Shown here: piece by piece, positions 80-59,305 of the stretch
Position numbering within the stretch: position 1 is the stretch's first letter
Layout: each line of letters opens with the position of its first letter
Origin: a bacterium
Lineage (GTDB): Bacteria > Patescibacteriota > Minisyncoccia > Phycocordibacterales > PALSA-1337
Reading direction: 5' to 3'
Length of the DNA: 62,375 nucleotides
Assembly: GCA_021782175.1 (NCBI GenBank)
Contig: JAJXVL010000001.1
Coordinates: 1 to 62,375, forward strand
The notes under the pieces: model-generated
What the model was told of the DNA's origin: nothing
Seen by the model: the letters and a program-made list of their open reading frames with translations, nothing else
Database searches by the model: none
Program-made: the position numbers and the translations under genes

Positions 80-590
80 AGTACCAGTGACGCATTGTTC
101 TTTTGAGACAAAACGAATCTGCCAGACCTTCACCGATTGTTTCGTCTCGACCTTCGGCTTCGGCTCAAAAGAATAATGTGTCACTGGTACTTGAGTTTGT
201 GCCCAGACCCTTAGCCCCATCAATAGTAGTTTCTCGGAGAGTAGTTGTACCCTTAGTGGGAACTCTACTTAGGCCGATTATTCGGCTGAAGGAATACATT
301 TGAGACTACTGATCCCGCTGGGAAGTTCCCACTAAGGGTACAGCTACTCTCCTAGTAATACAGTCTCTCAAAAACTCTATTGATGGGGCTTTGGTATTGG
401 ATTCACTGATTAGTAGTCCTGAAAGTCCTAGAAGCATTGGAGAGGGACTTCAATGTTCGGTCGAAAGGACCCTGCGAGCGCGACTGGCGCGAGCATAGAG
501 GAGATTCCCAGCAGGGAATTTCCGTGTCCTGGAGACCGAATATTGAAGTCCCATGATGCTTCTGGGGCTAAAGTAAGGATTGTGCCTGAT
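80..590. repeat. Mosaic nested-palindrome intergenic repeat cluster, locus L1. It contains a 28-bp hairpin (80-107/164-191), P arms near 213-240/364-390 enclosing Q arms 237-263/325-351, a G spacer at 391-425, and a D multi-helix module at 427-567.
   Basis: The arms were read directly from the sequence. Region 213-567 is the reverse complement of 32339-32682 with few differences. Confidence 0.85.
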
Positions 591-591
591 A

Positions 592-2523
592 TTACAACAA
601 TGATTCCGGATTGACCTTGATCGAAACTTCCGGCGGCAGGGAACGTAGTTTTGCCAGGAGCTCCGAGTCCGGCCAATGTTTGATCGGCACCTTGATGAGC
701 CCATGGATCGTCGAAGCCCCGCTCGCCGTCGCCGTGAAAGCCGGGAAGACATCTACTTCATGCGGCGTGAACAGAGCCTGGAGCTCGCCCATCTTCCGAG
801 CGATCACATCTTTGCGGCCCTCGATACTCACCTTGATGAGAACCGAGAAGGGTGGGTAGGCGAAGCGTTTGCGGCTCTCGATCACGCGATTGAAATAGTC
901 GCTCAAATTGCCCTTGAGACCGTACTCGAAGACTTTTTCCTCGGCGCGACGCGTCTGGACCAAGAAAACGCGGTTGGCAGCCGTACGCAATCTGGTCAGG
1001 AGATACATCAAGCGTTCTTCCAGGCGGAAATCCGGCAGAGTCAGCAGAGAATCGAGCGAAGCCACAGCGGCGTATTCGATCGGTGCATCTAGGCGTGTCA
1101 GTGCTGTTTCTGTGCCGACCAGGACCGAGCCCGGCTTGGCTCGCCAGTGATCCATGATGATCGAAGCTTGTTTGGTTGTTGTGGCGGAGTCAGCATCCAG
1201 TCGGAAGACTTCCAGCCCCGGGAAACGTTCGCGCAATTCTTCACGGACACGTTCCGTACCGATGCCGAGCGGGGATAGTCTAGGACCACCACAAACAGCA
1301 CAGACGATATCGGCGCTTTCCCGCGTGCCGCAAGTGTGGCACATGAAGAAATTGCGGCCGGTCTCCTTGGAGACATGTAGTACCAGCGGAGTAGCGCACT
1401 GCTTGCAAGCCACGGCCGTCTGGCAATCATCGCAGACCGTGATCGGCGACAAGCCGCGGCGAGCTGTCAGGATGAAAAGATGACTGTTCTCGGCTTGGGT
1501 ACGGCGGATGATTTCTTCGAGGGCGGGTGACAGGACACGGAAGGGTGTCTTGGTAGTGTGTTCAGCGCGATTGTGTGGATCTGGTCGGCGACGCATGTCG
1601 ATGAGCTCATCCGCGGCCATGGAAATAGAGCGCCATTTGAAGGGTGTGCCGCTGGTGATCTCATGCTCCTCTAGTCTCCAGAGCGTCTCAATCCGTAGAA
1701 GTGAATCTGCCAAGTAGACATTTTGTCTGGCCAAGCGGCCGATCCGCTCCAGCGCGCGGCGTGCGTCCAGATAAGGAGACTTGCTAGCCATCCAGCCGCG
1801 ACCGTTCTCTCGCTCAATAATGCGGCAACTGATATCGGCGCGGGGCAAGAGAACGAAGAGACCGGCGGTCACAATCACCGCCGGATGATCACAGTCAGCG
1901 ATGGCCGCCCAGGTTTCCAAAAGTTTTTTCTTGGGCAGGCCGGTATGAATGAAGAAGATGTATTTCTCAATGCCTTTTTGCAGATTGTCGAAGAGTTGGC
2001 GGGCATCCTCCATGGTTGGCGCGTGGAAGACTATGGATTGCCGCTTGGCGAATTCTTGCCGGATCAGACCGCGCCAGGCTGAGAAACGATCAGTGTCATC
2101 CCCCTGGATCGCAATCGTTTCATCAGCCAACGAAGCATTCTCCGCGAAGAAGCCACCTTGCCGTGGTAGAGGCGGGGCGATACGACCGCTCTGTTCTAGA
2201 ATGATTTCGGGGACCAGACTCCGGATAACCGTGCCAATATTTGTCGCGTAGAAATCGGCTAGTTCGCTGCAAGCAGCCATGAAAGCGGCCGGGAAAAAAG
2301 CGTTGGCTTTGACCTTGCCCAATTTGCGGATCTGATAGGGTGCGTCGCGCAGTTCAGCCTTGAGATCGGCCGCCGGTCGGCTCTCGGTGACAATGGCCGG
2401 GATATTCTTCTTGCGCAAAGGCACGCTGACAATAGCCCCTACCGGAGCTTCGGCTGCCGTGAAATAGGACAAGGTTGAGGAAACCTTGGAACGCGTGAGG
2501 GGGATAACGGTGATGATATTCAC
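592..2523 (-). CDS. priA: Primosomal protein N' (PriA)-like, with degenerate helicase motifs
   Basis: 643 aa with a GTG start. It has the PriA-type Cys-rich zinc region (CDDCQTAVACKQC...CHTCG...CAVCG) and PriA-like overall length and order. No GxGKT Walker A and no DEEH motif are visible. Confidence 0.7.
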   Translation of the reverse strand: MNIITVIPLTRSKVSSTLSYFTAAEAPVGAIVSVPLRKKNIPAIVTESRPAADLKAELRDAPYQIRKLGKVKANAFFPAAFMAACSELADFYATNIGTVIRSLVPEIILEQSGRIAPPLPRQGGFFAENASLADETIAIQGDDTDRFSAWRGLIRQEFAKRQSIVFHAPTMEDARQLFDNLQKGIEKYIFFIHTGLPKKKLLETWAAIADCDHPAVIVTAGLFVLLPRADISCRIIERENGRGWMASKSPYLDARRALERIGRLARQNVYLADSLLRIETLWRLEEHEITSGTPFKWRSISMAADELIDMRRRPDPHNRAEHTTKTPFRVLSPALEEIIRRTQAENSHLFILTARRGLSPITVCDDCQTAVACKQCATPLVLHVSKETGRNFFMCHTCGTRESADIVCAVCGGPRLSPLGIGTERVREELRERFPGLEVFRLDADSATTTKQASIIMDHWRAKPGSVLVGTETALTRLDAPIEYAAVASLDSLLTLPDFRLEERLMYLLTRLRTAANRVFLVQTRRAEEKVFEYGLKGNLSDYFNRVIESRKRFAYPPFSVLIKVSIEGRKDVIARKMGELQALFTPHEVDVFPAFTATASGASTIHGLIKVPIKHWPDSELLAKLRSLPPEVSIKVNPESLL

Positions 2524-2542: not shown

Positions 2543-4066
2543 CTATAGATCTCGGAAAGTTTCGATCTTGGCGCCGATTTTGTTGAGACGAGCCGCCAGA
2601 TCTTCATAGCCGCGGTTGATATTGTAGACATTGCGCAGGACAGACACGCCCGGCGCGGCCATCATGGCGAGCATGATGATGACTGAGGGGCGCAGAGCCG
2701 GCGGGCAGACCATTTCGGCGGCCTTGAGCTTGGCTGGTCCTTTGATATAGAAGCGGTGCGGATCGGCCAGGATGGACTCCGTGCCGAGCTTGTCCAATTC
2801 CTTGTAATAAATAGCTCTTTCTTCGAAGGTCCAATCATGGATGAAGGTTTCACCGGTGGCAAAGGCGCCGATCAGAGCAAAGAAGGGCAAGTTGTCCATA
2901 TTGATGCCCGGGAAGGGCAGGGCGTGGATTTTCTCATCCAAGGCTATGAGCTCAGACGGAGCTGTTTCAAGATCTACCAGATTGACGCGACCGTTCTGTC
3001 CCTTGTAGTGGCGCAAAATTTTGTATTTGAAGCCCATTTTGCTGAGCTTCAAAAGTTCTAATTCTAGGAAATCGATAGCACAACCCTCAATAGTGATAGC
3101 TGAGCCAGTGGCGATAGCGGCGGCGATGAGAGACATGGCTTCGATCGGATCTTCACCAACTGCGTAAGTGACATCAGTGTTGATTTCTTTGACTCCATGC
3201 ACAACCATAGTCGCCGTGCCGATACCATCTATCTGCACGCCAAGTTGCTCGAGATAAAAACAGACATCCTGTACCTGATAATTGGCGGAAGCAAATTTGA
3301 GGGTAGTTTTCCCGGGGATGAGCGCCGCCGCCATGAGCACGGTTTCCGTGACGGTATCGCCGGCTTCATAGAGTACAATTTCGCGATTGGCTTTGAGACC
3401 GGTATGTGAGACCTCATAATGGTTGGTCGTGGTTTCGATGGAAACACCCAGATCTTCTAGAGCATACAGATAGGGCTTCACGGTGCGCGAACCGAGTCGG
3501 CAACCACTCGGATGATTGACCTTGAACTTCCTCAGATGATGGATCAAGGGACCCATGAGCATGATTTCGCTCCGGGTCCGGGCTTGGGAGAAGTAGCGGG
3601 GATCGGAGAGATCGAACTTGGCCGGCGGGGTGATGAGCAGATCGTCGCCCCGCCACTCGCATTTGACGCCGATTGATTCCAAAACCTCGATGATCCGGTA
3701 GACTTCTTCGATTCGTGGCGCGTTCGCTATGGTAGTGCGGCCTTTGTTGAGTAGCGCGGCGATCATTACGCCCAGAGTGCCATTCTTGGACGAGCGCACG
3801 GCGATGCGACCTTTGAGCTTGTGACCACCCTCAATGCGGAAGTTGATGGTGCCGCCCTTGGAGAGACTGACAATCTCGTGATCGAGGGCGCTGCTGATCC
3901 GAGCTAGCGTCTTGGTCGAGAGATTTTGTTCGCCTTTCTCGATGCGGGCGATAACACTCTGGGTGGTGCCGACTTTGCGCGCGAGGGCAGCCTGAGTCAA
4001 GCCGCGATCTTCACGCAAGCGGGCAATGAGGGAACCGATATGGCTCAAAGAAGGATTTTTCTTCAT
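2543..4066 (-). CDS. murA: XRE-type helix-turn-helix domain fused to UDP-N-acetylglucosamine 1-carboxyvinyltransferase (MurA)
   Basis: 507 aa. The N-terminal ~65 aa (LTQAALARKVGTTQSVIARIEKGEQNLS) look like an XRE HTH. The rest aligns with MurA/EPSP-synthase-fold enzymes and includes an active-site-like PSGCRLGSRTV segment. Confidence 0.8.
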   Translation of the reverse strand: MKKNPSLSHIGSLIARLREDRGLTQAALARKVGTTQSVIARIEKGEQNLSTKTLARISSALDHEIVSLSKGGTINFRIEGGHKLKGRIAVRSSKNGTLGVMIAALLNKGRTTIANAPRIEEVYRIIEVLESIGVKCEWRGDDLLITPPAKFDLSDPRYFSQARTRSEIMLMGPLIHHLRKFKVNHPSGCRLGSRTVKPYLYALEDLGVSIETTTNHYEVSHTGLKANREIVLYEAGDTVTETVLMAAALIPGKTTLKFASANYQVQDVCFYLEQLGVQIDGIGTATMVVHGVKEINTDVTYAVGEDPIEAMSLIAAAIATGSAITIEGCAIDFLELELLKLSKMGFKYKILRHYKGQNGRVNLVDLETAPSELIALDEKIHALPFPGINMDNLPFFALIGAFATGETFIHDWTFEERAIYYKELDKLGTESILADPHRFYIKGPAKLKAAEMVCPPALRPSVIIMLAMMAAPGVSVLRNVYNINRGYEDLAARLNKIGAKIETFRDL

Positions 4067-4122
4067 AGGTCACAAAATAAGTCAAAGCTTGGATTAGGGT
4101 AATAAGGTAAGCTTTGCGGAGT

Positions 4123-4144
4123 ATTATAGCATATATGCTATAAT
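4123..4144. promoter_or_regulatory. Perfect 22-bp palindrome ATTATAGCATATATGCTATAAT containing TGcTATAAT extended -10 hexamers on both strands; candidate promoter/operator for the HTH-murA gene
   Basis: The palindrome was verified by hand. On the minus strand the TATAAT lies ~57 nt upstream of the murA ATG at 4066. Confidence 0.5.
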
Positions 4145-4197
4145 TTTTATACAAGATCTGTAAAAGGTAGAGTTTTGCATTCGTTAAAAAATACTTC

Positions 4198-5451
4198 CTA
4201 TAGAGCCTTTCTAAATATGACTATGTGTGCATCGTTTGGATCTATTTTTTGTATAGCCTCCCTAATTTCCTCGATCCTGATTGAATCAATAGAGTTCAAA
4301 TACTCTTCGTCGCTATACGCAATACCAGTATTGATCACTCTCTGTACAGTGTAGCTTCTATGCTTATCTGGATCTATTGGTCGTATATCGAACGATCCAC
4401 GAAGTCCTGCTTTTACTGTATTCAATCTATCTTCAGAGATGATCTCTGGATTTTGTATTAGATCTTTTATTGCAGATATGGTTGCGTTCATGTCTTCCGG
4501 GCGCGTCTCAGCATAAAACCCCCAATAGCCACCACCGGGAACCTCGTTTGCTATTATTTCTGCAGAATAGACCAACTTCCTTTCTTCGCGAAGTACTTTA
4601 TACAAAGGTGAATCCAAGCCGCCAAATCCAAAAATATGTTCCACCAAGCTCCTGCGAAATCTCTCTTTTAAAGACATTTTATCGGCTATAGGAAAAAGTA
4701 CTAATACAATGGACAACTCGTGTTCGGTCTTTATTGATGTTACTACACCGCGTTGCCACACGGGAAGCACACCGTAACTCGCGGCAGAGTGTCTCGGAGA
4801 CAAACCTCGTTTCTGGATGAGTGGTACCAGTGTATCCAATTCTGATAGTAGTTTCTTTTCGTCCAGGTTTCCGCTCACAAACAAGGCACACCGTGAACGA
4901 TCATAATTGTATTCCTGGGCCTTGCGTAGAATGCTCGGATTCATTGACGCTAATGATTTTTCATTACCGAGCACTGGATGGCCAAAAGGGTGCCCTTTCC
5001 AAATTATCCCAGGTAATTCATAAGTTACAAAACTCCTCAGTGAAGCTTTTTTTCTAGTGATTTCTTGGAGGATTATATCGCGTTCGGCATAGATGGCAGT
5101 ATCAGTCATCAATGGCTGTGCCATCAAATCTGTTATAGTGGATAGCGCTTCACGCCATATGCTCACTGGTACATGTGCATGATATGTTGTCGCATGTGTA
5201 GAAGTATACGCGCCCACACTTCCTCCGTGTCTAGATATATAGCCTTTTGTATCTGTGTATCCACCAGGATATTTGGATGTTCCACGGAATGGCACATGCT
5301 CAAACCAGTGATAGAGTCCCGGCGATCCTACACTCTCATCATCAGCACTACCCACGAACATAGTCCAGCTCATGCTGACTGAACGTACATCTGGAAGATG
5401 CTCAAAATATACTGTGATTCCAGACGATCCTTCGATTTTTTTGAATTTCAT
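4198..5451 (-). CDS. M16-family zinc metallopeptidase (pitrilysin/insulinase-like)
   Basis: It carries the inverted zinc motif HxxEH (HWFEH) near the N-terminus within a ~417-aa ORF. The start was trimmed to MKFKKIEG. The gene is visibly AT-rich relative to its neighbours. Confidence 0.75.
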   Translation of the reverse strand: MKFKKIEGSSGITVYFEHLPDVRSVSMSWTMFVGSADDESVGSPGLYHWFEHVPFRGTSKYPGGYTDTKGYISRHGGSVGAYTSTHATTYHAHVPVSIWREALSTITDLMAQPLMTDTAIYAERDIILQEITRKKASLRSFVTYELPGIIWKGHPFGHPVLGNEKSLASMNPSILRKAQEYNYDRSRCALFVSGNLDEKKLLSELDTLVPLIQKRGLSPRHSAASYGVLPVWQRGVVTSIKTEHELSIVLVLFPIADKMSLKERFRRSLVEHIFGFGGLDSPLYKVLREERKLVYSAEIIANEVPGGGYWGFYAETRPEDMNATISAIKDLIQNPEIISEDRLNTVKAGLRGSFDIRPIDPDKHRSYTVQRVINTGIAYSDEEYLNSIDSIRIEEIREAIQKIDPNDAHIVIFRKAL

Positions 5452-6020
5452 TTTATAAAAATAGGGCATCTGCAAAGACGCCCTGAACTGACATTGTTTG
5501 GTTAGCGCCCTTCCCCGGTGCTTCCGTCTCCGTTGCCGGAGGAATCGGAATCACCTTCGTAGGACGGACAACCCGTATCGTCGCTTTCGCTGCTTTCGCG
5601 AGACATGGCGAATTCGTGATTGAGGTTAGAATGTGCTCTGCTGTGTCCGTATTAGGCAAACGGATGCCGTCAACCATCCACAGTGTGTGGATGAAAATCA
5701 CCTTTCCGGACGATCTTCGGATACAACCGTTTCATCCCAGTAATCACCTGGAATGTCAGGCTCTTTTACTATACTACTCATATTTTTCCTTTGTTTTAGC
5801 AGACATGCATCATAATGTCTGCTACAGTGTGCGACCATCCATTATTAGATGGTAGCACCGGTTCCACAGATAGCATACATTTGTAATAAAAAATGTCAAT
5901 ATACAAGCTTATGTCATTACCGAGCCTGATTCGTTCGATATTTGACAGGTTGGGATTGGAAAGTTCCGACTAGGATGACTCGTTTGCGGTTCGGCCTCTT
6001 TGTGCTAAAGTCAGCCTGTT

Positions 6021-7034
6021 ATGAGTATTTTCTCGTCGAAACTAGGTATCGATCTAGGTACGGCCAATACGCTAGTTTTCATGCCGGGCAAGGACATTGT
6101 TCTCAATGAGCCCTCAGTGGTGGCTGTCTCCGAGGCTGACAAGCGGGTTTTGGCGGTCGGTAACGATGCCAAGGAGATGGTCGGACGCACGCCGGATTCG
6201 ATCGTGGCTTATCGGCCGATGAAGGATGGCGTCATCGCCGACTATCGCGTGACGGAGGCTATGCTGCGCTATTTCATCAACAAAGCTCTGGGTCGTTTCA
6301 ATATCTGGAAGCCGGATGTGATGATCTCGGTACCAGCCTCGGTCTCTTCGACTGAGCGCCGCGCCGTGATCGAGGCCGCCATCCGCGCCGGCGCCAAGAA
6401 TGCCTATGTAGTCAAAGAGCCGATCTTGGCGGCTATCGGTGCCGGTATTCCGATCCAAGAAGCTCGTGGTCACATGGTCATCGATATTGGCGGCGGTACG
6501 ACTGATGTGGCGGTCATTTCTCTCGGTGGCATCGTTTCCTCTACCTCAGTCAAATGTGCCGGCAACAAGCTCGACGCGGCCATTGCCGACTATGTCAAGA
6601 AAACTTTCAATCTAGCGATCGGTGATCATATGTCGGAAATCATCAAGATTCAGATCGGTTCAGCTATCCCGCTCGATACTGAGCTGTCGATGACTGTTAA
6701 AGGTCGCGATTTCATCTCGGGCTTGCCGCGTTCAACGGAAATCAAGACCAATGAGATTGTCAAAGCTCTGGCCGCGCCGCTCAGAGATATGGTCAAGGCT
6801 GTGAAGGATGTTCTCCAGGACACGCCTCCAGAATTGGCTGCGGATATCATCGATCAGGGCATCATTATGACCGGCGGCTCCTCGCTCCTGCGCAATTTGC
6901 CGGAATTGATCTTCCGTCGCACTGGCGTCAAAGCGCGCTTGGCTGATGAGCCGCTCCTATGCGTGGCCAAGGGTACCGGCATCGCTCTCGAACATTTGGA
7001 TACTTACAAGAAAGCCATCGTCGCCAAGCGCTAG
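6021..7034 (+). CDS. mreB: Rod-shape determining protein MreB (paralog 1)
   Basis: 337 aa with actin-fold motifs GIDLGTANT, DIGGGTTD and MTGGSSLL. Confidence 0.9.
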   Translation: MSIFSSKLGIDLGTANTLVFMPGKDIVLNEPSVVAVSEADKRVLAVGNDAKEMVGRTPDSIVAYRPMKDGVIADYRVTEAMLRYFINKALGRFNIWKPDVMISVPASVSSTERRAVIEAAIRAGAKNAYVVKEPILAAIGAGIPIQEARGHMVIDIGGGTTDVAVISLGGIVSSTSVKCAGNKLDAAIADYVKKTFNLAIGDHMSEIIKIQIGSAIPLDTELSMTVKGRDFISGLPRSTEIKTNEIVKALAAPLRDMVKAVKDVLQDTPPELAADIIDQGIIMTGGSSLLRNLPELIFRRTGVKARLADEPLLCVAKGTGIALEHLDTYKKAIVAKR

Positions 7035-11212: not shown

Positions 11213-11557
11213 CACTTCTCTGTAGAAGCTCTCAACCCAAGCCCCATCCCTAGTAGTTTTTGAGAACCCTGCGGAACTCGCTACGCTCCCGCTCCGCTCA
11301 GACAGTCCTCGGTCTCTCAAAAACTCTAGGAATGGGGCTTGGGGTAGTGACTAACCATATCCATTCCTCTACACCAAGCAACAGTCTCTCTCGTGTGTCT
11401 CATAGCCCAATGCTTCTAGGGCTAACTTGGTTTAATAATATTTCAAGTGAGTTCCCACTAGGTACAACCAGTTCCCCGAGAAACTACTATTGATGTGGCT
11501 AGGTCTGGGTACGCTTAAGTTAAGCGGAGTCCTCACTAAGATTACAGAGTACTCTCC
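11213..11557. repeat. Mosaic nested-palindrome repeat cluster, locus L2. It contains a P hairpin in reverse orientation at 11241-11338, a D right arm, a Q right arm + P right arm, and the tail.
   Basis: It shares modules with 24963-25087, 27911-28035 and 28050-28110, read directly from the sequence. Confidence 0.8.
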
Positions 11558-11636
11558 AAGATGTTGTAATATTACGATATAACTAATTATATCCTGTCAA
11601 TTACGCCTTATTTCCGCTTTGTGTTAATGTACGCCT

Positions 11637-12704
11637 ATGAAATTCAAGGATTATAAGGAAAGGTTTTTCGGTCGTTTCTCTAACGATATTGGTATTGATC
11701 TCGGTACCGCTAATACTCTGGTCTATGTCCGCGGCAAGGGCATTGTCGTCAACGAACCATCCGTCGTGGCTGTCAACGAGAAGACCGGTCAAGTCGTAGC
11801 TGTCGGCGCCGCCGCCAAAGAGATGCTCGGTCGCACTCCGGCGCATATCACGGCTGTCAGACCGTTGGTTGATGGTGTCATTTCTGACTTCGAAGTGACC
11901 GAGGAAATGCTCTCCTACCTCATGAAGCGCGCCGCGGAATTCCTGCCCAAGAAGCCGCTCGGTCCGCGTGTAGTCATCGGTGTACCTTCCGGCGTGACTA
12001 ATGTCGAAGTTCGTGCCGTGCGTGACGCCGCCAAGAATGCCGGTGCCAGGGAAGTCCACATCATCGAACAACCCATGGCCGGAGCCATCGGCATCCGCCT
12101 ACCAGTCCATGAGCCGGTTGGTTCTATGGTTATCGATATCGGCGGCGGCACCACTGATATCGCCGTCATTGCTCTCGGGGGCATTGTTCGATCCAAGAAC
12201 CTCAAGATTGCCGGTGATCGCCTGAACAATGACATCGTTTCCTATATCCGCAACGAATTCAAGATCCTGATCGGTGAGACGACGGCTGAACAAGTCAAAA
12301 TTACCGTCGGCGCGGTCGTGCCAGCTGAGCCTCTGGAGACTACTATTCGTGGCCGCGACCTTATCACTGGTTTGCCGCGAGAAGTTGTCATTACCGACTC
12401 CGATATTCGTGAAGCGATGAGTCAATCGATCGAGACCCTCGTCGAAGCCTCGAAAGAAGTTTTGGAAACTACGCCTCCAGAAATCCTCTCAGATGTCATG
12501 AAGCGCGGTATCTATCTGGTTGGTGGCGGGGCTCTTATCAAAGGTCTGGATGAACTCCTCTCTGATACGCTCAAATTACCGGTAGCTATTGCGGACGACC
12601 CGCTCACGGCGGTCGCTCGTGGTGCTGGCGCTATTCTAGAAGAGTTGGAGCTCTTCCGACCAGTTTTACTCGAAAGCGAAGATGACGTACTTAGCGCCTC
12701 GTAA
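11637..12704 (+). CDS. mreB: Rod-shape determining protein MreB (paralog 2, next to mreC)
   Basis: 355 aa with motifs GIDLGTANT, DIGGGTTD and LVGGGALI. Confidence 0.92.
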   Translation: MKFKDYKERFFGRFSNDIGIDLGTANTLVYVRGKGIVVNEPSVVAVNEKTGQVVAVGAAAKEMLGRTPAHITAVRPLVDGVISDFEVTEEMLSYLMKRAAEFLPKKPLGPRVVIGVPSGVTNVEVRAVRDAAKNAGAREVHIIEQPMAGAIGIRLPVHEPVGSMVIDIGGGTTDIAVIALGGIVRSKNLKIAGDRLNNDIVSYIRNEFKILIGETTAEQVKITVGAVVPAEPLETTIRGRDLITGLPREVVITDSDIREAMSQSIETLVEASKEVLETTPPEILSDVMKRGIYLVGGGALIKGLDELLSDTLKLPVAIADDPLTAVARGAGAILEELELFRPVLLESEDDVLSAS

Positions 12705-24794: not shown

Positions 24795-24826
24795 AAAAAA
24801 GCTTCGTCAAACGAGGCTTTTTTTGA
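24795..24826. terminator. Bidirectional rho-independent terminator (A-run, GCTTCGT/ACGAGGC stem, T-run)
   Basis: The sequence is AAAAAAGCTTCGTCAAACGAGGCTTTTTTT, directly after rplU. Confidence 0.75.
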
Positions 24827-24832
24827 ACAATA

Positions 24833-25125
24833 ATATCGGAGAACAGGTTGTCTGTCGGAGAGTAGCTGTACCCTTAGCGGGAACTCCACTTGAAATATCA
24901 TTAAACCGAGTTAGCTCTAGAAGCATTGGGACTTCAATGCTTCTAGGGCTTTCAGGACTGCCAATCAGTGAATCCAATACCAAGGCCCCGTCAATAGAGT
25001 TTTTGAGAGACCGAGGACTGTCTGAGCGGAGCGGGAGCGTAGCGAGTTTCGCAGGGCTCTCAAAAACTACTATTGATGGGGCTAAAGTCTGGGTGCGATT
25101 AAGTTAAGTAGCAGTACTCAAGTAA
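24833..25125. repeat. Mosaic nested-palindrome repeat cluster, locus L3. It contains left Q-type arms at 24833-24893, a short D hairpin at 24917-24947, and G + P hairpin + tail at 24963-25125.
   Basis: 24963-25087 matches 27911-28035 at 124 of 125 positions (hand comparison). Confidence 0.88.
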
Positions 25126-27664: not shown

Positions 27665-28186
27665 TTACATTAGTAGTTTTTCCAGAGAAAATGTGTTTTT
27701 TGGAGGATAACCATTTCAATCTGATGAGCCCTCAGGTAGTTGGTCTCTAATAGCCCTAGAAGCATTGGGGTTCTGAGACACGCTGTCGGCACGGCCATCG
27801 TGTCGCAGCTCGTGCTCGCCGACGCGAGGAAATAGACATGATAATGTTCGATGTGCGTCGGCTCCGCAAGGTCTCATCACCCCAATGCTTCTATGTCTTT
27901 CATGAGTAATAATCAGTGAATCCAATACCAAGGCCCCATCAATAGAGTTTTTGAGAGACCGAGGACTGTCTGAGCGGAGCGGGAGCGTAGCGAGTTTCGC
28001 AGGGCTCTCAAAAACTACTATTGATGGGGCTAAAGGTTCCAGGATGTTCTAAGCGAAGTTCCCACTAAGGGTACAGCTACTCTCCGAGAAACTACTATTG
28101 ATGGGGCTAAAGGTTTCAGGATGTTCTAAGTAGAGTTCCCACCAGGGTACAACCTGTTCTCCGACAGACAACTTGTTATCCGATAT
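27665..28186. repeat. Mosaic nested-palindrome repeat cluster, locus L4. It contains the E leader, D arms at 27753-27770/27879-27895 with a ~110-nt loop, G + P hairpin at 27911-28035, and a tandem ~72-nt tail/Q-right/P-right unit x2 at 28014-28160. It ends with Q-type right arms at 28126-28186.
   Basis: All modules were read directly from the sequence and are shared with L1-L3, L5 and L6. Confidence 0.88.
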
Positions 28187-28189
28187 ATT

Positions 28190-29575
28190 TTATTTTTCCA
28201 CCACCTTGTAACCATCAACCTGATCCAGGATTTCAAAACCACGTGATTCTATCTCGGCGCGTAAGGCATCAGCTTTCGCCCAGTCTTTGGCTTGCCTAGC
28301 TTCTTCACGAGCTTCAGCCAGAGCCTGAATCTCCGGTGGTATAACAGTCGTTTCTGATATTTTGGGCACCGTGGACAATTTCAAACCGAAGACTCGGTCG
28401 AAGTCTAGAAGAGTCGCTTTTTTGGCGGCTTCTGATACACCGGAATCCTTGATCAAGGCCCAAGCCAGAGCCACAGCCTGAGGCATATCCAAGTCATCGT
28501 TGATTAAGGTCTGGAAACGCGTCAAATAGCTCGAATCAGCCTCGCCGCCATCAGGATAGGTACTGACTATGGTCATGAGGCGTATGAGGGCGTTCTGAGC
28601 CGCCTTGATGGCTTCCAGGTTGAAGTCGATAGGTGATCGATAGTGAGCCGTCAGGAGCCAGTAACGGTAGGCGAGAGGAGAGACAGCTTGGTCGATCAGT
28701 TGTTGTAGGGTCAGAAAGTTCCCGGAAGATTTGGACATCTTGTCATGATTCAGTGTGATGAAGGCACTATGCATCCAATAGTCAGCCAGCGGCCTGCCGC
28801 AAGCTGCTTCGGATTGGGCTATCTCATTGGTGTGATGTACCGGAATATGATCGATGCCCCCAGTATGAATATCGAAGGGTTGACCGAGGTATTTGACGGA
28901 CATAGCCGAACATTCGATGTGCCAGCCCGGGAAGCCTTTGCCCCAGGGACTATCCCAACCAAGTTTCGGATCAAATTTCCACAGCCAAAAGTCCGCCGGA
29001 CTTTTCTTCTCTGGATCCAGTGCTACTCGAGCACCGGCTTTCAATTCGTCTAGTTTGAGATTGGCCAGCTTGCCGTAAGCAGGGAATTTGGAAACATCGA
29101 AACAGATTCCGCGTGAAGTTTGATAAGTGAAGCCATTCTCCTCAATCAGTTTGATAAGAGCGATATCATCATCAATATGTCGGCTAGCCTTGGGTAGTTC
29201 CTGGGGCTTCTCGATATTCAATCTTTCCAGATCGGTCACAAATCTCTCGAAGTAGATATCAGCCACTTCCGCCATGGCCGCTAGGGTGAGTGGCTTGCCG
29301 AGTCTTTTCAGGGTCTTGGTCATCTTGTCTTCGCCGTCATCAGCATCACTGATCAAATGTCCGACATCGGTGATATTGATCACCTGGTGCACGGCATATT
29401 TGTTGTATTCGAAAACACGCCGCAAGATATCGGCAAAAACATACGCCCGGAGATTGCCGATATGCGCGTCATCGTAGACAGTCGGGCCGCAATGATACAT
29501 GCCCACTTGGCCGGGATGAATCGGCTCGAAGACTTCCTTGCGCCGGGTCAGAGTGTTCCAAATCTTGATATCCAT
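28190..29575 (-). CDS. cysS: Cysteinyl-tRNA synthetase
   Basis: It has a HIGN (HIGH-type) motif and KMSKS. The start was trimmed to MDIKIWNTL. Confidence 0.9.
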   Translation of the reverse strand: MDIKIWNTLTRRKEVFEPIHPGQVGMYHCGPTVYDDAHIGNLRAYVFADILRRVFEYNKYAVHQVINITDVGHLISDADDGEDKMTKTLKRLGKPLTLAAMAEVADIYFERFVTDLERLNIEKPQELPKASRHIDDDIALIKLIEENGFTYQTSRGICFDVSKFPAYGKLANLKLDELKAGARVALDPEKKSPADFWLWKFDPKLGWDSPWGKGFPGWHIECSAMSVKYLGQPFDIHTGGIDHIPVHHTNEIAQSEAACGRPLADYWMHSAFITLNHDKMSKSSGNFLTLQQLIDQAVSPLAYRYWLLTAHYRSPIDFNLEAIKAAQNALIRLMTIVSTYPDGGEADSSYLTRFQTLINDDLDMPQAVALAWALIKDSGVSEAAKKATLLDFDRVFGLKLSTVPKISETTVIPPEIQALAEAREEARQAKDWAKADALRAEIESRGFEILDQVDGYKVVEK

Positions 29576-32299: not shown

Positions 32300-32715
32300 A
32301 ACTTCACTAGAGAAGCTCTCAGGTAGTCAGTCTCGAATAGCCCCAGAAGCATCAGGGGACTTCAATATTCGGTCTCCAGGACACGGAAATTCCCTGCTGG
32401 GAATTTCCTCTATGCCAGGCAACAGTCGCGCTCGCAGGGTCCTTTCGACAGAACATTGAAGTCCCCTGAGGATTTGAGGTATTTCAGCAGCGAATCAATA
32501 CCAAAGCCCCATCAATAGAGTTTTTGAGAGACCGTATTGTTAGGAGAGTAGCTGTACCCTTAGTGGGAACATTCCCAGCGGGATCAGTAGTCTAAAATGT
32601 ATTCCTTCAGCCTAATAATCGGCCTAAGTAGAGTTCCCACTAAGGGTACAGCTACTCTCCGAGAAACTACTATTGATGGGTCTAAGGTCTGGGCGCGATT
32701 AAGTTAAATGGAGTT
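32300..32715. repeat. Mosaic nested-palindrome repeat cluster, locus L5. It contains the D multi-helix module at 32339-32470, the P stem enclosing the Q hairpin at 32505-32682, and the tail.
   Basis: It is the reverse complement of 213-567 with scattered substitutions. Confidence 0.88.
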
Positions 32716-32726
32716 CCTATTTCCTG

Positions 32727-32775
32727 AATAAAAAACAGATCAACCTTTATGGGTCGACCTGTTTTTTTGTTTTTC
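32727..32775. terminator. Bidirectional rho-independent terminator candidate (11-bp imperfect stem flanked by A-run and T-run)
   Basis: The sequence is AAAAACAGATCAACC-TTTATG-GGTCGACCTGTTTTTTTGTTTTT, located downstream of rpmA on the minus strand. Confidence 0.6.
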
Positions 32776-34141: not shown

Positions 34142-35482
34142 TTAATATGGCATTTTCGGCAAATAAGAAAGTGGATTGAGATAAGCCGACAAAACAGCCA
34201 AAGGTACAGTGGCACCTTGACAATGTTTGGAAGTTGTGAACTTCTGAATAGAAACACCGCTCGTGGCATAGACGCCAAAGTGCAAGTGCGGACCGGTTGT
34301 ATAGCCCGTATTGCCGCTATAGCCGATAATTTGTCCGGTGACTACAGTCTGACCAATATCAACGACAGATAGCGACAGGTGGGCGTATAGAGTCGACAAA
34401 CCATCCGGATGCTTGATCATGATCCAGCGGCCGAAGGAATAACAACCAGGTACCAGGTCAGTATTAGCTTCGCCAACGACTTGTCCGGTCAAAGCGGCTC
34501 TTACAGGCGTACCAATGGAAGCTCGGAAGTCGACGCCGTCATGACCAAAACCGTTGTAGATTTGGGCATTGGCTGTGGCAAAAGGCGTGTTACCGAAATA
34601 TTGCGTGATAAAGACCTTGTCTACCGGCCAGTTCAATGGCGCTGAGCCTGAAGGTGGCAGGCTGGTACTGCTCACATTCAGCTGCAGTTGGCTGCCATAC
34701 TGCAACAATTCTTGCTCGAAGGCATCTTTGAGGGCTTTTTTGTTGGCCAGAATGGCCTGGTAAGCAGCCTCAGAGTCTTTGGTCTCTGCCAGAAGTTTGC
34801 TCTTGTCATTCTGGGTAGCCAGGACAACATTGCGCTGATCACGCAGTTGGTTTTGCAGGTCGATCAAATCAGCCCGGGCTTTTTGCACATTGGACTTGGT
34901 ATGTTCCAGGCTGGCCTTGGTTGAAGACAATTTCCCAATCCGGTCCTGGAGATTACCTTCGAGTAGAGCCAGGTCATTGACATTCTGCCAGACTTGGCTG
35001 ATTGATTGGCTGGACAAGATAAGTGCTGCCAAAGAATGGTTACCACTCTCAGCCATACTCATGAATGCTTCAGCTACGGAGCGTTGATTGTCCGCCAAGG
35101 TGCTTTGGGTGTCACCAATTTGGCTATTGAGGTTGTTGAGACGGGCTGAAGCGGCATCAACCTTGTCCTTGGTCAGAGCGATCGAGGCCTGCAGTTTGCG
35201 TTGGCTCAGATCTAGACTCTTGATAGTGTCGGATAGCGAGTCGGCTTGGCCGGATAAATCATCTAGCTGATTCTGATAAGCCGCGATTTCCTTTTCTAGA
35301 TTTTGAATATCTGCGGTACGTTGGTCGATCTTGCTTTGCAAACTACTGTCCGCGGCCGGGGAGGCTGTGGAGGCATTCGTTGTATCAGCTCTGGTGTATG
35401 CCGGCTGTGCCAGGAACGAAACAATCACGACCAAAAAGGCCCAAGTGAAAGCCTGTAGTATCCCTTGGAGGTTTTTAGCCAT
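34142..35482 (-). CDS. M23 family metallopeptidase with N-terminal coiled coil (EnvC-like)
   Basis: It has a signal/TM segment, a long Q/L-rich coiled coil, and the motifs HDGVDF and TGPHLHFGVY. Confidence 0.85.
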   Translation of the reverse strand: MAKNLQGILQAFTWAFLVVIVSFLAQPAYTRADTTNASTASPAADSSLQSKIDQRTADIQNLEKEIAAYQNQLDDLSGQADSLSDTIKSLDLSQRKLQASIALTKDKVDAASARLNNLNSQIGDTQSTLADNQRSVAEAFMSMAESGNHSLAALILSSQSISQVWQNVNDLALLEGNLQDRIGKLSSTKASLEHTKSNVQKARADLIDLQNQLRDQRNVVLATQNDKSKLLAETKDSEAAYQAILANKKALKDAFEQELLQYGSQLQLNVSSTSLPPSGSAPLNWPVDKVFITQYFGNTPFATANAQIYNGFGHDGVDFRASIGTPVRAALTGQVVGEANTDLVPGCYSFGRWIMIKHPDGLSTLYAHLSLSVVDIGQTVVTGQIIGYSGNTGYTTGPHLHFGVYATSGVSIQKFTTSKHCQGATVPLAVLSAYLNPLSYLPKMPY

Positions 35483-36836
35483 GCTTCAACGATTGAGACT
35501 CCTGAGTATTCAGGCGATGCAGGGCCGAGTCTAGTCTCTTCAGACTCTCTTCCCTGCCTAGAATAGCAGCTGAGACGAATGGATCTGGGGATTTGTCCTG
35601 ACCAGTGAGAGCAATACGTAAGGGCCAGAGAACATCGCCGCGACCTTGGGCTTCGGCGTAGGGCCAGAGGGTATCTTTGATCGTATTGGCGTCAAATTCG
35701 ATATCCGCCAAGATATGCAGGAGACGCTTGGCTTCGGTCAGATGTTTGATGGCTGTAGCTGTTGGTTCGGTGCTTTTTTTCCAAGGAAGCTTGGCTAGGT
35801 CATAAGCCGGTAAACTTCGCACAAAATGCAATTCCCCACTTTCTTCGAATAGTGCCGGGACTTCATCAAAAGCGGCAATCTTATCCTTGATGATTGGGAG
35901 CAAGCGTTTCAAAACCGGGCTTTTGACGGATAGCCATTCTGGCAAGAATGGTTGGACGGCCTCGCTGAAGTCGGCTTCGTTGAGTTGGAGCAAATATTGG
36001 CGGTTGAACCAGCGCAATTTGGCTTCGTCGAAGATGGCCCCGGCCTTCTGGACACGTTCCAATGAAAAATCTTTGATGATTTCCGCGAAAGACATAACTT
36101 CGCGATTATCTTCCGGGTGCCAACCTAGGAGAGCCAGATAATTCACTACGGCTGCTGGCAAGAAACCGCGGCGGCGATATTCGGTCACCGGGATGGCACC
36201 GTTGCGTTTGGATAGTTTGGAACGATCAGTAGCCAGAAGAAGCGGAATATGAGCATAGGATGGTACCGGAAAACCCAGGGCTTCGTAGAGCAAAATATGA
36301 CGAGGGGTATTGGAGATGTGATCTTCACCGCGAATAACATGAGTAATACCCGACTCAGCATCATCCACCACGACAGCCAGATGGAAGACCGGTTCATCCA
36401 AACTTTTGGCTATGACAAAGTCGCCCAATTCCGTGGTGTCGAATTCGATTCGACCGCGAATCAAGTCATTGAAGACCACAACCTTGTTGGGATTCTTGAA
36501 ACGAATAACTTCACTCCGTTCACCAGCCGCCGCTACTTTCTCAGCCGAAACAAAAGCTTGGCTATTGGCGATCAAACGCTCAATATGTTTGCGATAATTA
36601 GCAGTGTGGTCTGATTGTCTCGAGAAATCATCATAATCCAAGCCGAGCCATTTCAAGCTATCAACAATGTTCTCCTCGTATTCTTTTTTGGAGCGTTCAC
36701 GGTCAGTGTCTTCGATGCGCAGGACGAATCGGCCGCCCTGCTGACGGGCAAAAATATAGGAAAAAAGCGCTGTTCGGTAGGAACCAGCGTGGAAATAACC
36801 AGTCGGTGAAGGGGCAAAACGGGTGATAACTTTCAT
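35475..36836 (-). CDS. gltX: Glutamyl-tRNA synthetase
   Basis: It has RFAPSPTGYFHAGS (HIGH-type) and KLSKR (KMSKS-type) motifs. The start was trimmed to MKVITRFAP. Confidence 0.9.
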   Translation of the reverse strand: MKVITRFAPSPTGYFHAGSYRTALFSYIFARQQGGRFVLRIEDTDRERSKKEYEENIVDSLKWLGLDYDDFSRQSDHTANYRKHIERLIANSQAFVSAEKVAAAGERSEVIRFKNPNKVVVFNDLIRGRIEFDTTELGDFVIAKSLDEPVFHLAVVVDDAESGITHVIRGEDHISNTPRHILLYEALGFPVPSYAHIPLLLATDRSKLSKRNGAIPVTEYRRRGFLPAAVVNYLALLGWHPEDNREVMSFAEIIKDFSLERVQKAGAIFDEAKLRWFNRQYLLQLNEADFSEAVQPFLPEWLSVKSPVLKRLLPIIKDKIAAFDEVPALFEESGELHFVRSLPAYDLAKLPWKKSTEPTATAIKHLTEAKRLLHILADIEFDANTIKDTLWPYAEAQGRGDVLWPLRIALTGQDKSPDPFVSAAILGREESLKRLDSALHRLNTQESQSLKHG

Positions 36837-36871
36837 TGCCTTATTATAGCGTATCTTGGTACAATGTAGCC

Positions 36872-37144
36872 ATGTCAGTAGAATTCGAAAGTGATTTGGC
36901 GGGTCGTTCCTATCGACCAACATCAGTACCACCAAGTAAGCTGGAGACTATGGTGATCAAGATGGGCCTGGCCAAGGATCACAAATCAGCTCAAACGGTT
37001 TTTGCTGTTGTATCAGTGATTTGTCTCACGGCGGCAATTTATTTATTCTGGACTCAGAATAGTCCGGCTTCCCCCAGTGTTGGGCAGATATCAGCACCGG
37101 TAGTGGCACCTACAAACCAAGTCAAACCAGCCGTTAAGCCCTAA
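36872..37144 (+). CDS. Small single-TM hypothetical protein
   Basis: 90 aa with one TM helix (VFAVVSVICLTAAIYLFW). It is divergent from gltX. Confidence 0.4.
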   Translation: MSVEFESDLAGRSYRPTSVPPSKLETMVIKMGLAKDHKSAQTVFAVVSVICLTAAIYLFWTQNSPASPSVGQISAPVVAPTNQVKPAVKP

Positions 37145-46894: not shown

Positions 46895-47098
46895 AAGTCA
46901 TTAGTTTTTCCAGATCCTTAGTCCCGTTAGTATTAGTTTCTTAGAAAATAAGTTGTTTTTCGGAGAACAGGTTGTACCCTTGTGGGAACTCTACTTAGGC
47001 CGATTATTCGGCTGAAGGAATACATTTTAGACTACTGATCCCGCTCTAGAATGTTCCCACAAGGGTACAACCTGTTCTCCTCACAACTGCTCGGTCTC
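46895..47098. repeat. Mosaic nested-palindrome repeat cluster, locus L6. It contains the E leader and a Q-variant hairpin at 46961-47080 with the same ~60-nt loop as L1/L5.
   Basis: The arms GGAGAACAGGTTGTACCCTTGTGGGAAC / GTTCCCACAAGGGTACAACCTGTTCTCC are perfectly complementary. They differ from the L1 arms at paired positions. Confidence 0.85.
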
Positions 47099-47132
47099 TC
47101 AAAAACAAAAGTCTCCTCGAAAGGAGACTTTT
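47099..47132 (-). terminator. Rho-independent terminator downstream of rpsI (9-bp stem AAGTCTCCT/AGGAGACTT, then TTTTGTTTTT on the minus strand)
   Basis: The sequence was read directly. Confidence 0.75.
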
Positions 47133-52619: not shown

Positions 52620-52696
52620 ATTTATGCAAATCATAACACACTGTGACCACAATCGATAATCACACTTAGTCTCGATTTGTATTTCCTGGATTATTT

Positions 52697-58401: not shown

Positions 58402-58402
58402 A

Positions 58403-59305
58403 TTATTTTTCTGAAAACAACCCCTCTGATTGCCATTTCAAAATTAAATTGCGAACAAAATTGAGAGAATGCAACGCTTCTATTTTATCTAGCACTATGT
58501 TTTCAGATAATAGATCTACACGTTGTCTATGTTTAATAAATTCTATCCTGTATTCATCAAGAAATTGAGATGTGCTTAAAGCTTGTCCGAGTTGAAGAAA
58601 TGATTTTGAAACATCCGCAGCAAGTTTTTTATAGGTTTCCTCGTTATAATTGTTAGAATAGTCGTCTCTGATTATTTTACTAAAATTACTCTCGCCGCCA
58701 CCTCCCCAATAACCAGTAAGTTTTCCTGCTAATTCTACAATGCGGTGCCCATCAAATACTGCTGTTTGTAAGGCTTCGTCAGATCTTCCTACACAGTCGT
58801 TATACCGCGTCTCATTAAATGCTGATTCGGCTTCCTTAACCTTCACTCTTATATCATTTATATCTATAAGATCTGCTAGAGATAAAGTGTCGTAACACGT
58901 TTCAAATTCCTTTGAAAAAACTTCTTTTAGGAAATCTTCAGTGTACCCTTGATATTTAATAAGAGTTTCAAATGAAGGCACATCACCGCGGTGATGAACA
59001 TTATTCCTCTCTTCGTGTAAATTTCCAATTTTTGAACTTGTCGGTAATTTTTCCAAGTTTTTTAATAAATCGTAGTATTCCCAATGTTTCTTTGGGTTAT
59101 TATTTTTATCTTTTGGTAATGATATTTTTTTATAATCTACAAATATTTTCATTACCATTTCCACTGAATTATCAAAACAGTGTATCGCTAATAGTCTATC
59201 GATAGTAGAGCTTGTATTTTTTGCAAAATCAGACCCACGCATGAACATAGCCTTAACAATAACAAGAGAATGTATGACCCTTATTTTTTCCTGCTCTGTA
59301 CTCAT
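58403..59305 (-). CDS. AT-rich hypothetical protein with a possible HEPN-like R-x4-H motif (ERNNVHHRG)
   Basis: 300 aa, helical and Lys/Asn/Glu-rich. It lies 1 nt from the mnmA start, and its ATG overlaps the mltG stop (ATGA). Confidence 0.45.
   Translation of the reverse strand: MSTEQEKIRVIHSLVIVKAMFMRGSDFAKNTSSTIDRLLAIHCFDNSVEMVMKIFVDYKKISLPKDKNNNPKKHWEYYDLLKNLEKLPTSSKIGNLHEERNNVHHRGDVPSFETLIKYQGYTEDFLKEVFSKEFETCYDTLSLADLIDINDIRVKVKEAESAFNETRYNDCVGRSDEALQTAVFDGHRIVELAGKLTGYWGGGGESNFSKIIRDDYSNNYNEETYKKLAADVSKSFLQLGQALSTSQFLDEYRIEFIKHRQRVDLLSENIVLDKIEALHSLNFVRNLILKWQSEGLFSEK

What the first reader, a model, noticed from the sequence alone, without database searches (positions are those of the whole stretch)
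24963..25087. The P hairpin is near-identical in two copies and shows compensatory base-pair changes in a third
24963-25087 and 27911-28035 are direct repeats identical at 124 of 125 positions. The core is a ~25-bp stem enclosing a 47-nt GC-rich loop (ACCGAGGACTGTCTGAGCGGAGCGGGAGCGTAGCGAGTTTCGCAGGG).

The single difference (A to G at CCCCGTCAAT) turns an A-T pair into a G-T pair. That is a tolerated G-U wobble only on the plus-strand RNA.

The reverse-oriented copy at 11241-11338 has left arm CCCCATCCCTAG and right arm CTAGGAATGGGG. Two adjacent A-T pairs are replaced by C-G pairs on both arms. One extra mismatch would be a U-G wobble on the same element-sense strand. Paired changes that preserve the helix argue that the structure itself is maintained.
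Basis: seen in the sequence. Interest (0 to 1): 0.65.

Follow-up and report, generated by a model that had tools for sequence, protein, structure and literature searches.

The report
Dispersed palindromic repeat module, Patescibacteria
The "P hairpin" is real, but it is best read as one module of a lineage-specific family of mosaic, nested palindromic DNA repeats littering the intergenic spacers of a small Patescibacteria genome, not as a demonstrated structured RNA; it is an ordinary kind of thing in an unusual host.

Summary
24963-25087 and 27911-28035 match at 124 of 125 positions. Both carry a 25-bp stem with one bulged A and a 47-nt GC-rich loop. The reversed copy at 11241-11338 has two adjacent A-T to C-G swaps.

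I found six loci with this hairpin, all in one species-level lineage. Three are identical over 100 nt. Of 25 pairs, 20 never vary, and both compensated pairs sit side by side in one copy, so R-scape-type testing is impossible.

The wobble rule fails. A sixth copy has its G-T on the other strand, giving a 3:1 tally. Sister modules give 6:3. At the three loci lying between co-directional genes, the element-sense strand is antisense to those genes.

The hairpin always sits inside 190-460-nt clusters of other hairpin modules that recombine as a mosaic. A syntenic relative lacks all of them (73-nt spacer against about 500 nt). Assemblies differ at cluster edges.

No Rfam match, promoter, terminator or transposase accompanies it in the window. 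It resembles REPIN, BIME and MITE repeats. The mobilising enzyme is unknown.

The parts
24985..25082 (+). P hairpin copy a. Left arm 24985-25009, loop 25010-25056, right arm 25057-25082, bulged A at 25069. G at 24990 gives a G-T pair.
27933..28030 (+). P hairpin copy b, the canonical sequence. The same 100 nt occur at the adk/secY locus (L035) and in L011.
11241..11338 (-). P hairpin copy c, an old diverged copy. Two adjacent compensated pairs and two G-T pairs. The stem extends 5 more pairs into the flanks. Inner stem plus loop match the canonical copy at 71/73, but the flanks are only partly alignable.
32499..32689 (+). PG composite. The P outer stem and left inner arm enclose a 28-bp G hairpin instead of the GC-rich loop.
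207..396 (-). Second PG composite, about 97% identical to the inverted copy at 32499-32689.
   Evidence: (I1, I6)
24825..25125 (+). Cluster C. Order: G left half, short Q hairpin, spacer T, P copy a, tail. It lies between the rplU terminator and the 3' end of recR.
27735..28190 (+). Cluster D. Order: Q stem with a 110-nt GC-rich loop, spacer T, P copy b, then two 77-nt tandem units (28005-28158) carrying G right arms. It lies between orf86 and the 3' end of cysS.
   Evidence: (D6)
11225..11570 (-). Cluster B. P copy c plus degenerate Q and G modules and an orphan P right arm (11473-11501). It lies between a class II aaRS gene and mreB, both on the + strand.
   Evidence: (D4, I15)
201..600 (-). 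Cluster A. PG composite plus a full Q/S hairpin. It is an inverted copy of cluster E.
32330..32740 (+). Cluster E. Q/S hairpin plus PG composite, between rplI (L9) and rpmA (L27). The syntenic relative has a 73-nt spacer here.
46925..47110 (.). Cluster F. A G' hairpin (a subfamily whose changes are matched on both arms) plus a fragment of the P left arm (47086-47106). It lies between grpE and rpsI.
   Evidence: (I13, D15)

Best explanation
The P hairpin is the best-conserved module of a lineage-specific family of non-coding, dispersed palindromic DNA repeats. These repeats have colonised the intergenic spacers of one Patescibacteria species.

The modules (P, G/G', Q, S, plus spacers) occur as mosaics and nest inside one another's loops. 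Copies are spread or homogenised at the DNA level, either by copy-and-paste through an unidentified trans-acting enzyme or by ectopic gene conversion between clusters.

Arm complementarity is kept for two possible reasons. A single-strand DNA hairpin may be what is recognised or formed during that process. Alternatively, or in addition, quasi-palindromes are corrected by intra-hairpin template switching.

**Shown:** the dispersal, near-identity, mosaicism, absence from a syntenic relative, both orientations, and structural differences at cluster edges.

**Inferred:** the mobilising mechanism. The conserved single unpaired base and the strictly conserved GC-rich loop (GAGCG GAGCG GGAGCG TAGCG) are candidate protein-recognition features.

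When transcribed, the element will also fold as a very stable RNA hairpin, but that is a by-product on present evidence.
For: **Copies and their similarity**
- Six loci carry the GC-loop hairpin in unrelated contexts: rplU/recR, orf86/cysS, aaRS/mreB, adk/secY inside the spc operon, L011, and the 3' end of an HTH gene in L067. Three are identical over 100 nt.
- Six clusters cover about 2.1 kb, or 3.4% of the window. All are intergenic.

**Mosaicism**
- The P stem holds either the GC-rich loop or a G hairpin.
- The Q stem holds a 7-nt loop, an S hairpin or a 110-nt GC-rich loop.
- P and G right arms share the same 3' end.

**Lineage-specific presence**
- The syntenic relative L048 (RecR 67% identical, same gene order) has no such sequence and compact spacers, 73 nt against about 500 nt between L9 and L27.
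- The genome scan gave one true hit. The metagenome scan gave none apart from the doubtful L016, and three viral scans gave none.

**Structural differences at clusters**
- The 77-nt unit is single in other assemblies.
- L068 carries a hybrid of copies a and b and lacks recR-dnaB-orf86. In the same sample, L002/L075 carries that cassette next to other genes.
- L060 has a different flank after cluster E.
- An IS1-family transposase fragment abuts the exact edge of cluster C in L070.
- Many contigs from several assemblies end inside the repeats.

**Other modules behave the same way**
- G and G' differ by several substitutions and an indel that are matched on both arms.

**No RNA or regulatory signature**
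- No Rfam family, promoter or terminator signature.
- Both strands fold about equally well as DNA.

**Precedent**
- REPIN hairpins show frequent compensatory changes (PMC3116915).
Against: - No transposase or RAYT lies in the window. I scanned 30 ORFs in 1-11 kb, 33-47.6 kb and 51-60 kb, and locus tables cover about 11.6-35.8 kb and 44-50.6 kb. The ORFs at 35475-36935, 60260-61537 and 61562-62269 were not scanned.
- The IS200-type TnpA in L002 has its own small, unrelated end hairpins. The IS1-like end in L070 does not match any module.
- No target-site duplication or precise empty site was found within the species.
- The most conserved part is the centre (inner stem plus loop, 71/73 even in the old copy c) rather than the termini. 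This is the reverse of a typical MITE or REPIN. It would also fit a functional loop.
- The rearranged contigs come from short-read assemblies and could be path errors through the repeat.
Confidence: 0.7

Rival explanations
1. One reading: the hairpin is a structured RNA, either a cis-acting element or a small RNA. Its helix is kept by selection on the element-sense transcript, and G-U wobbles are tolerated only on that strand.
For: - All 25 pairs are kept in five distinct copies, with two compensated pairs and three G-U pairs on the same strand.
- As RNA, the element-sense strand folds better than the antisense strand: -54.4 against -42.3 kcal/mol for copy a.
- The loop and inner stem are almost unchanged (71/73) in a copy whose flanks have diverged strongly.
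Against: - The covariation is one event cluster in one copy; 27 of 500 shuffles reach it.
- L067 has its G-T on the other strand. Sister modules in the same clusters give 6:3 by my hand tally.
- At all three loci lying between co-directional genes, element sense is antisense to those genes. Copy c would therefore carry two C-A mismatches in the mRNA.
- No promoter-like site lies in or next to the hairpin, and there is no Rfam match.
- The element is absent from the same spacers in a syntenic relative.
Confidence: 0.12
2. A host-domesticated 3'-end element. The hairpin acts in mRNA of either orientation as a barrier to 3' exonucleases, an RNase III site or a terminator substitute, as reported for REP and Correia elements (from my own knowledge, not checked in a paper here).
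For: - Every copy is intergenic.
- Several lie just after a gene's stop codon: recR by 61 nt, secY, and the HTH gene in L067.
- recR has no other terminator-like hairpin.
- Stability is very high on both strands.
Against: - There is no U tract.
- rplU and rpmA keep their own ordinary terminators beside the clusters.
- The relative manages the same operons without the element.
- Placement inside the spc operon between secY and adk would hinder co-transcription rather than help it.
Confidence: 0.1
3. A binding-site array for a DNA-binding protein, for example a nucleoid, partition or replication factor. The protein would read the pentamer-rich loop (GAGCG x3 plus TAGCG) presented on a cruciform or as duplex DNA.
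For: - The loop sequence is the most conserved part. Across all six copies it shows only two single-base differences, one in copy c and one in L067.
- Short direct pentamer repeats are visible in the loop sequence itself.
Against: - A 47-nt loop makes cruciform extrusion unfavourable (inference).
- PG composites keep the stem but replace the loop.
- There is no candidate protein and no conservation outside one lineage.
Confidence: 0.06

Closest known systems
REPINs (REP doublets forming hairpins) mobilised by RAYT transposases
   Same: Both are about 100-nt extragenic hairpins in many near-identical copies and in both orientations. Both are sometimes found in ordered or tandem clusters that include flanking sequence. 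Compensatory changes across the hairpin are common in both, and the hairpin is thought to form in ssDNA or mRNA (PMC3116915).
   Different: The P arms are not themselves REP-type imperfect palindromes. Here the conserved part is the centre, whereas REPINs conserve the ends. No RAYT was seen in the window or the loci. The known copy number is six loci rather than tens to hundreds.
BIMEs of E. coli and BOX elements of Streptococcus pneumoniae (mosaic intergenic repeats); comparison from my own knowledge
   Same: A small set of modules is combined in variable order and number in intergenic regions, giving large predicted secondary structures.
   Different: There is no sequence relation. Here the modules nest inside one another's loops, with alternative cargo in a constant stem. 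The host is a streamlined Patescibacteria genome.
MITEs such as the Neisseria Correia element; comparison from my own knowledge
   Same: Both are about 100-150 bp, bounded by about 25-nt inverted arms, non-coding, intergenic, and form hairpins when co-transcribed.
   Different: No target-site duplication could be defined. No autonomous IS with matching ends was found: the IS1-like and IS200-like elements seen in related assemblies do not match.
Integron attC sites and IS200/IS605 end hairpins (ssDNA hairpins read by a recombinase through an extrahelical base); comparison from my own knowledge
   Same: An imperfect hairpin with one conserved unpaired base that marks one strand. A gene cassette (recR-dnaB-orf86) is flanked by direct copies.
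   Different: There are no R/L core sites and no integrase or TnpA beside the element. The stems are far longer. The cassette holds essential housekeeping genes.

Membership tests
REPIN / REP-RAYT system | Two inverted REP sequences, each an imperfect palindrome of its own, separated by a spacer | tested here: not met
   The arms GCCCCATCAATAGAGTTTTTGAGAGACCG and its partner are not internally palindromic. The folds show one continuous stem.
REPIN / REP-RAYT system | A single-copy RAYT (Y1 HUH) gene flanked by the same repeats | not testable with these tools
   None in the 62-kb window (tblastn; Pfam). The whole genome is not available. The Y1 transposase in L002 is an ordinary IS200-type TnpA with its own unrelated hairpins.
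REPIN / REP-RAYT system | Extragenic, over-represented, hairpin-forming, with compensatory changes | tested here: met
MITE | Terminal inverted repeats bounding a short non-coding element | tested here: met
   25-nt arms. ORFs across the element are spurious.
MITE | Target-site duplication flanking the element | tested here: inconclusive
   The copies always sit in the same composite context (spacer T on the left, tail on the right), so no independent insertion junctions could be compared.
MITE | An autonomous IS with matching ends in the same or a related genome | tested here: not met
   The IS200-type element (L002) and the IS1-type end (L070) share no similarity with any module. Only a small part of the genome could be examined.
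MITE | Filled and empty sites among relatives | tested here: inconclusive
   All clusters are absent from the syntenic relative L048. That genome is too distant to show a precise empty site. Strains of the species itself all carry the copies.
Curated structured RNA family (Rfam) | A match to a covariance model at or near the gathering score | tested here: not met
   0 matches at gathering score in the window. Over cluster C there were only chance-level matches with E above 0.2.
Structured RNA in general | Statistically supported covariation across independent lineages | tested here: inconclusive
   2 of 25 pairs, adjacent and both in one sequence; 27 of 500 shuffles reach the observed value. 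Too few diverged copies exist in public data.
Structured RNA in general | Consistent orientation relative to transcription | tested here: not met
   Element sense is antisense to the flanking genes at three loci and ambiguous (convergent genes) at the others.
Intrinsic terminator | A GC-rich stem followed by a U tract | tested here: not met
   No terminator-like site in or at the hairpins.

The most novel reading that the evidence does not exclude
The P, G, Q and S hairpin clusters are a previously undescribed mobile or recombinogenic element system of candidate-phyla-radiation bacteria. An unknown enzyme would recognise a single-strand DNA hairpin through the bulged base and the strictly conserved GAGCG-repeat loop. 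The element can carry alternative cargo inside constant stems. It also moves blocks of essential genes, such as the recR-dnaB cassette, between clusters.
Probability: 0.2. Interest if true: 0.55.

Novelty: new member of a known kind. Interest (0 to 1): 0.3.

Why it matters
Patescibacteria genomes are small and tightly packed, so a repeat family taking up about 3% of a 62-kb stretch and enlarging spacers from tens to hundreds of bases is unusual for the group.

It has practical consequences. The repeats break short-read assemblies. They generate spurious gene calls: a 56-aa ORF, and a 170-aa product reading from an HTH gene into the repeat. They also appear to be sites of rearrangement.

For the specific claim, the lesson is methodological. 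Compensated pairs in a dispersed palindrome do not distinguish an RNA structure from a DNA-level hairpin repeat.

Tried and rejected
- **Genome scan with the loop core.** Three hits, two of them chance matches in GC-rich genomes.
- **Metagenome scan with the inner-stem pattern.** 23 hits. All are unrelated hairpins or chance matches except the doubtful L016.
- **Three viral scans.** Chance matches only.
- **Concatenated pseudo-protein.** I joined six-frame translations of all clusters to harvest spurious ORFs. The search returned nothing, not even P0001, which it contained at 95% identity.
- **First rplU look-up.** It failed because I used the wrong start codon.
- **IS200-type TnpA of L002 as mobiliser.** Rejected, because its end hairpins (CCCCAGAC/GTCTGGGG and CCCCGCAG/CTGCGGGG) are unrelated to P.
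- **IS1-like end of L070 as a source of the arms.** Rejected, because it has no similarity to any module.
- **TIGR arrays, raised by the literature search.** Rejected, because these repeats are not tandem guide arrays.
- **Terminator or promoter function.** No consensus sites.
- **Automated G-U counting on whole-cluster folds.** Too noisy, because it picks up spurious helices. I counted only the canonical stems by eye.
- **Strain comparison.** Nearly all assemblies are 99.9-100% identical to the window, so they gave no substitution polymorphism inside the hairpin.

Full report
**1.

The two direct copies, 24963-25087 and 27911-28035, match at 124 of 125 positions. The only difference is G at 24990 against A.

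Each copy contains the following:
- a stem of 13 outer pairs (GCCCCATCAATAG / CTATTGATGGGGC);
- 12 inner pairs (AGTTTTTGAGAG / CTCTCAAAAACT);
- one unpaired A on the 3' arm between the two stem segments;
- a 47-nt loop with 66% GC.

The reversed copy at 11241-11338 carries four changes in its stem: two adjacent A-T to C-G replacements, a C-G to U-G change, and a G-C to G-U change at the top of the inner stem. There is also one change in the loop.

The repeat is far beyond chance. The loop core occurs 3 times against 0 expected. Fold z-scores are -6 to -8. The G at 24990 is present in four independent assemblies.

**2. The hairpin is not a stand-alone feature**

A repeat search shows six intergenic clusters in the window: 201-600, 11225-11570, 24825-25125, 27735-28190, 32330-32740 and 46925-47110. 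Together they make about 2.1 kb, or 3.4% of the window.

The clusters are built from a small set of palindromic modules:
- P;
- a 28-bp G hairpin (GGAGAGTAGCTGTACCCTTAGTGGGAAC) and its G' variant;
- a Q stem (CCCTAGAAGCATTGGG);
- an S hairpin (GGGGACTTCAATATTCGG);
- constant spacers.

The modules form mosaics and nest inside one another:
- At 32499-32689 and 207-396 the P outer stem and left inner arm enclose a G hairpin instead of the GC-rich loop.
- The Q stem carries a 7-nt loop, an S hairpin or a 110-nt GC-rich insert.
- P and G right arms share the same 3' end (AAACTACTATTGATGGGGCTAA).
- At 28005-28158 a 77-nt unit is tandemly duplicated.

G and G' differ by several substitutions and an indel that are matched on both arms. 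Matched change on both arms is therefore a property of the whole system, not of P alone.

**3. Host and distribution**

The genes are housekeeping genes of a Patescibacteria genome: rplU, recR, dnaB, cysS, mreB, ribosomal protein genes, dnaK, and others. The closest RecR in 5.8 billion proteins is only 70% identical.

Outside this species-level lineage, the searches gave the following:
- The genome scan found one true extra copy, in a Patescibacteria MAG (L011), identical over the 100-nt hairpin.
- The metagenome scan found nothing convincing.
- Three viral scans found nothing.

Using spurious ORFs that run across the repeat as handles, I found two more loci. One lies between adk and secY inside the spc operon. 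The other abuts the 3' end of an HTH gene (L067).

That makes six loci. The hairpin is identical in three of them.

A covariance model built from the five distinct copies finds no further copy in the window apart from the two PG composites.

**4. The clusters are lineage-specific additions**

A relative with the same gene order (L27, L9, corA, cysS, orf87, dnaB, recR, rplU, rmuC, yqeY) has no similar sequence and no long inverted repeats. Its spacers are compact. L9/L27 is 73 nt there against about 500 nt here, and rplU ends with the same kind of simple terminator.

**5. The covariation test is weak**

On the five distinct copies, the 25 pairs break down as follows:
- 20 never vary;
- 3 vary on one side only, and all three are G-U in element sense;
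- 2 are compensated.

Both compensated pairs are adjacent and both lie in copy c. In the shuffle control, 27 of 500 shuffles reach the observed value.

Copy c also differs from the others by a three-base change in its right flank (AAA to TGG). That change makes the flank complementary to the left flank and lengthens the stem by five pairs. Clustered multi-base changes that create complementarity are what hairpin-templated copying (quasi-palindrome correction) produces. This is my inference from established knowledge of that process. Independent point substitutions under selection are not needed to explain them.

REPINs, which are mobile DNA hairpins, are reported to show frequent compensatory changes (PMC3116915). 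Covariation alone therefore does not point to RNA.

**6. The strand argument does not survive more data**

- In L067 the P stem has a G-T on the opposite strand, which is an A-C mismatch in element sense. The bulged base there is T rather than A. The tally within P is 3:1.
- In the canonical stems of the sister modules I counted transition-type mismatches by eye from the folds. The S stem in L035 has three G-T in element sense. The G, Q and S stems of cluster A (partly shared with cluster E and L006) have three on the other strand. The overall tally is 6:3.
- At the three loci lying between co-directional genes (aaRS/mreB, adk/secY, L011), element sense is antisense to those genes. The other loci lie between convergent genes.
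- No promoter-like or terminator-like site lies in the hairpin.
- There is no Rfam match.
- Both strands fold well as DNA.

**7. A feature that does need explaining**

In copy c the flanks are only partly alignable to the canonical copy, and the outer stem has 5 changes in 24 bases. Yet the inner stem plus loop match at 71 of 73. Either the core is constrained, for example as a recognition site, or it was recently overwritten by gene conversion from another copy.

A 97%-identical strain (L006) has a PG composite where the window has the GC-rich loop, at the same recR locus. This fits exchange between copies, although that contig is short.

**8. Clusters coincide with structural differences between assemblies**

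- The 77-nt unit is single in three other assemblies.
- In sample ERZ27236847, a 57-kb contig joins rplU to cysS through a hybrid cluster. The hybrid has the copy-a G on the left and the cluster D tail on the right. The 2948-bp recR-dnaB-orf86 segment that lies between the two direct copies is missing from it. A second contig from the same sample carries that segment next to unrelated genes.
- One MAG has a different right flank after cluster E.
- Another MAG has an IS1-family transposase fragment starting exactly at the left edge of cluster C.
- Many contigs end inside the repeats.

These are short-read assemblies. The rearrangements are consistent with recombination at the repeats but are not proven.

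**9. Verdict**

The hairpin is a real, conserved module of a dispersed, mosaic palindromic repeat family. It is closest in kind to REPINs, BIMEs, BOX elements and MITEs, but I could not establish membership of any of them:
- the arms are not REP palindromes;
- no RAYT or matching IS was found;
- no target-site duplication could be defined.

The family appears undescribed in Rfam and in the searchable literature. That makes it a new member of a known kind.

The claim that a structure is maintained is right at the level of the helix. The claim that it is an RNA structure is unsupported.

Noticed in passing
window 24935-25087 and 27883-28035; L068 2833-3294; L002 7669-8076: recR-dnaB-orf86 (2948 bp) lies between two direct copies of the Q-T-P block. 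One 57-kb contig (L068) has a precise hybrid of copies a and b and lacks the segment. In the same sample, L002/L075 carries the segment beside unrelated glycosyltransferase genes. This is either a real translocation of an essential-gene cassette or an assembly path error.
   Followed up: partly
window 28005-28158: A 77-nt tandem duplication whose two units are 79% identical (P/G right arm plus tail plus G right arm). Assemblies L001, L002 and L003 have only one unit.
   Followed up: partly
L070 2890-3200: In MAG GCA_021833985.1 the sequence right after the rplU terminator is not cluster C. It is the 3' part of an IS1-family transposase gene (Pfam DDE_Tnp_IS1, 25.6 bits). The junction is exactly at the cluster edge (..AATAATATC|).
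   Followed up: partly
L002 1560-2110: A complete IS200-type element in a 99.7%-identical strain but absent from the window. It has a 143-aa Y1 transposase flanked by small hairpins (CCCCAGAC..GTCTGGGG and CCCCGCAG..CTGCGGGG). It is unrelated in sequence to the P, G, Q and S modules.
   Followed up: yes
L016 10545-10664: A single hairpin after rplA in a Hainich groundwater contig. It shares the inner stem (forced by my search pattern). It also shares features that the pattern did not force: the GAC after the left arm, an ATCA.TAG/TAT.GAT outer stem, CCAAA and GGTT flanks, and a GC-rich loop containing GCGGAGCG. It scores 25.9 bits with model R1. It may be a distant relative of P in another Patescibacteria.
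   Followed up: partly
window 24937-25107 (+); L067 702-1214: Gene callers have annotated ORFs that are only translations of the repeat. One is a 56-aa 'protein' (P0001 cluster). Another is a 170-aa product (P0122) in which an HTH gene reads through into P and S modules.
   Followed up: yes
window 24830-24858 (-) and 28161-28189 (+): Outward-facing promoter-like sites (CCGACA, 17 nt, TATTAT or TATATT) lie at the outer ends of clusters C and D. Both are in the G'-type terminal module, and both point into the 3' ends of rplU and cysS respectively.
   Followed up: no
window 80-191: A separate 33-nt inverted repeat, 88% complementary, with 46 nt between the arms. It lies next to cluster A and is unrelated to the other modules.
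   Followed up: no
window 2543-4066 (-): An EPSP-synthase/MurA-type enzyme with an N-terminal Cro/C1-type HTH domain (Pfam HTH_3, 5e-14). This is an unusual fusion.
   Followed up: no
window 4001-6000 and 58001-60000: Two stretches of low G+C (43% and 41.5% against about 50% elsewhere). The second overlaps a 300-aa ORF (58403-59305) with no Pfam match. The 521-aa ORF at 51204-52769 also has no match.
   Followed up: no
window 6021-7034 and 11637-12704: Two MreB paralogues lie 4.6 kb apart. The second is followed by mreC.
   Followed up: no
L060 2236-4814: In MAG GCA_021833565.1 the sequence after cluster E continues into a response-regulator gene instead of rpmA (L27). This is another structural difference located at a cluster edge.
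   Followed up: no
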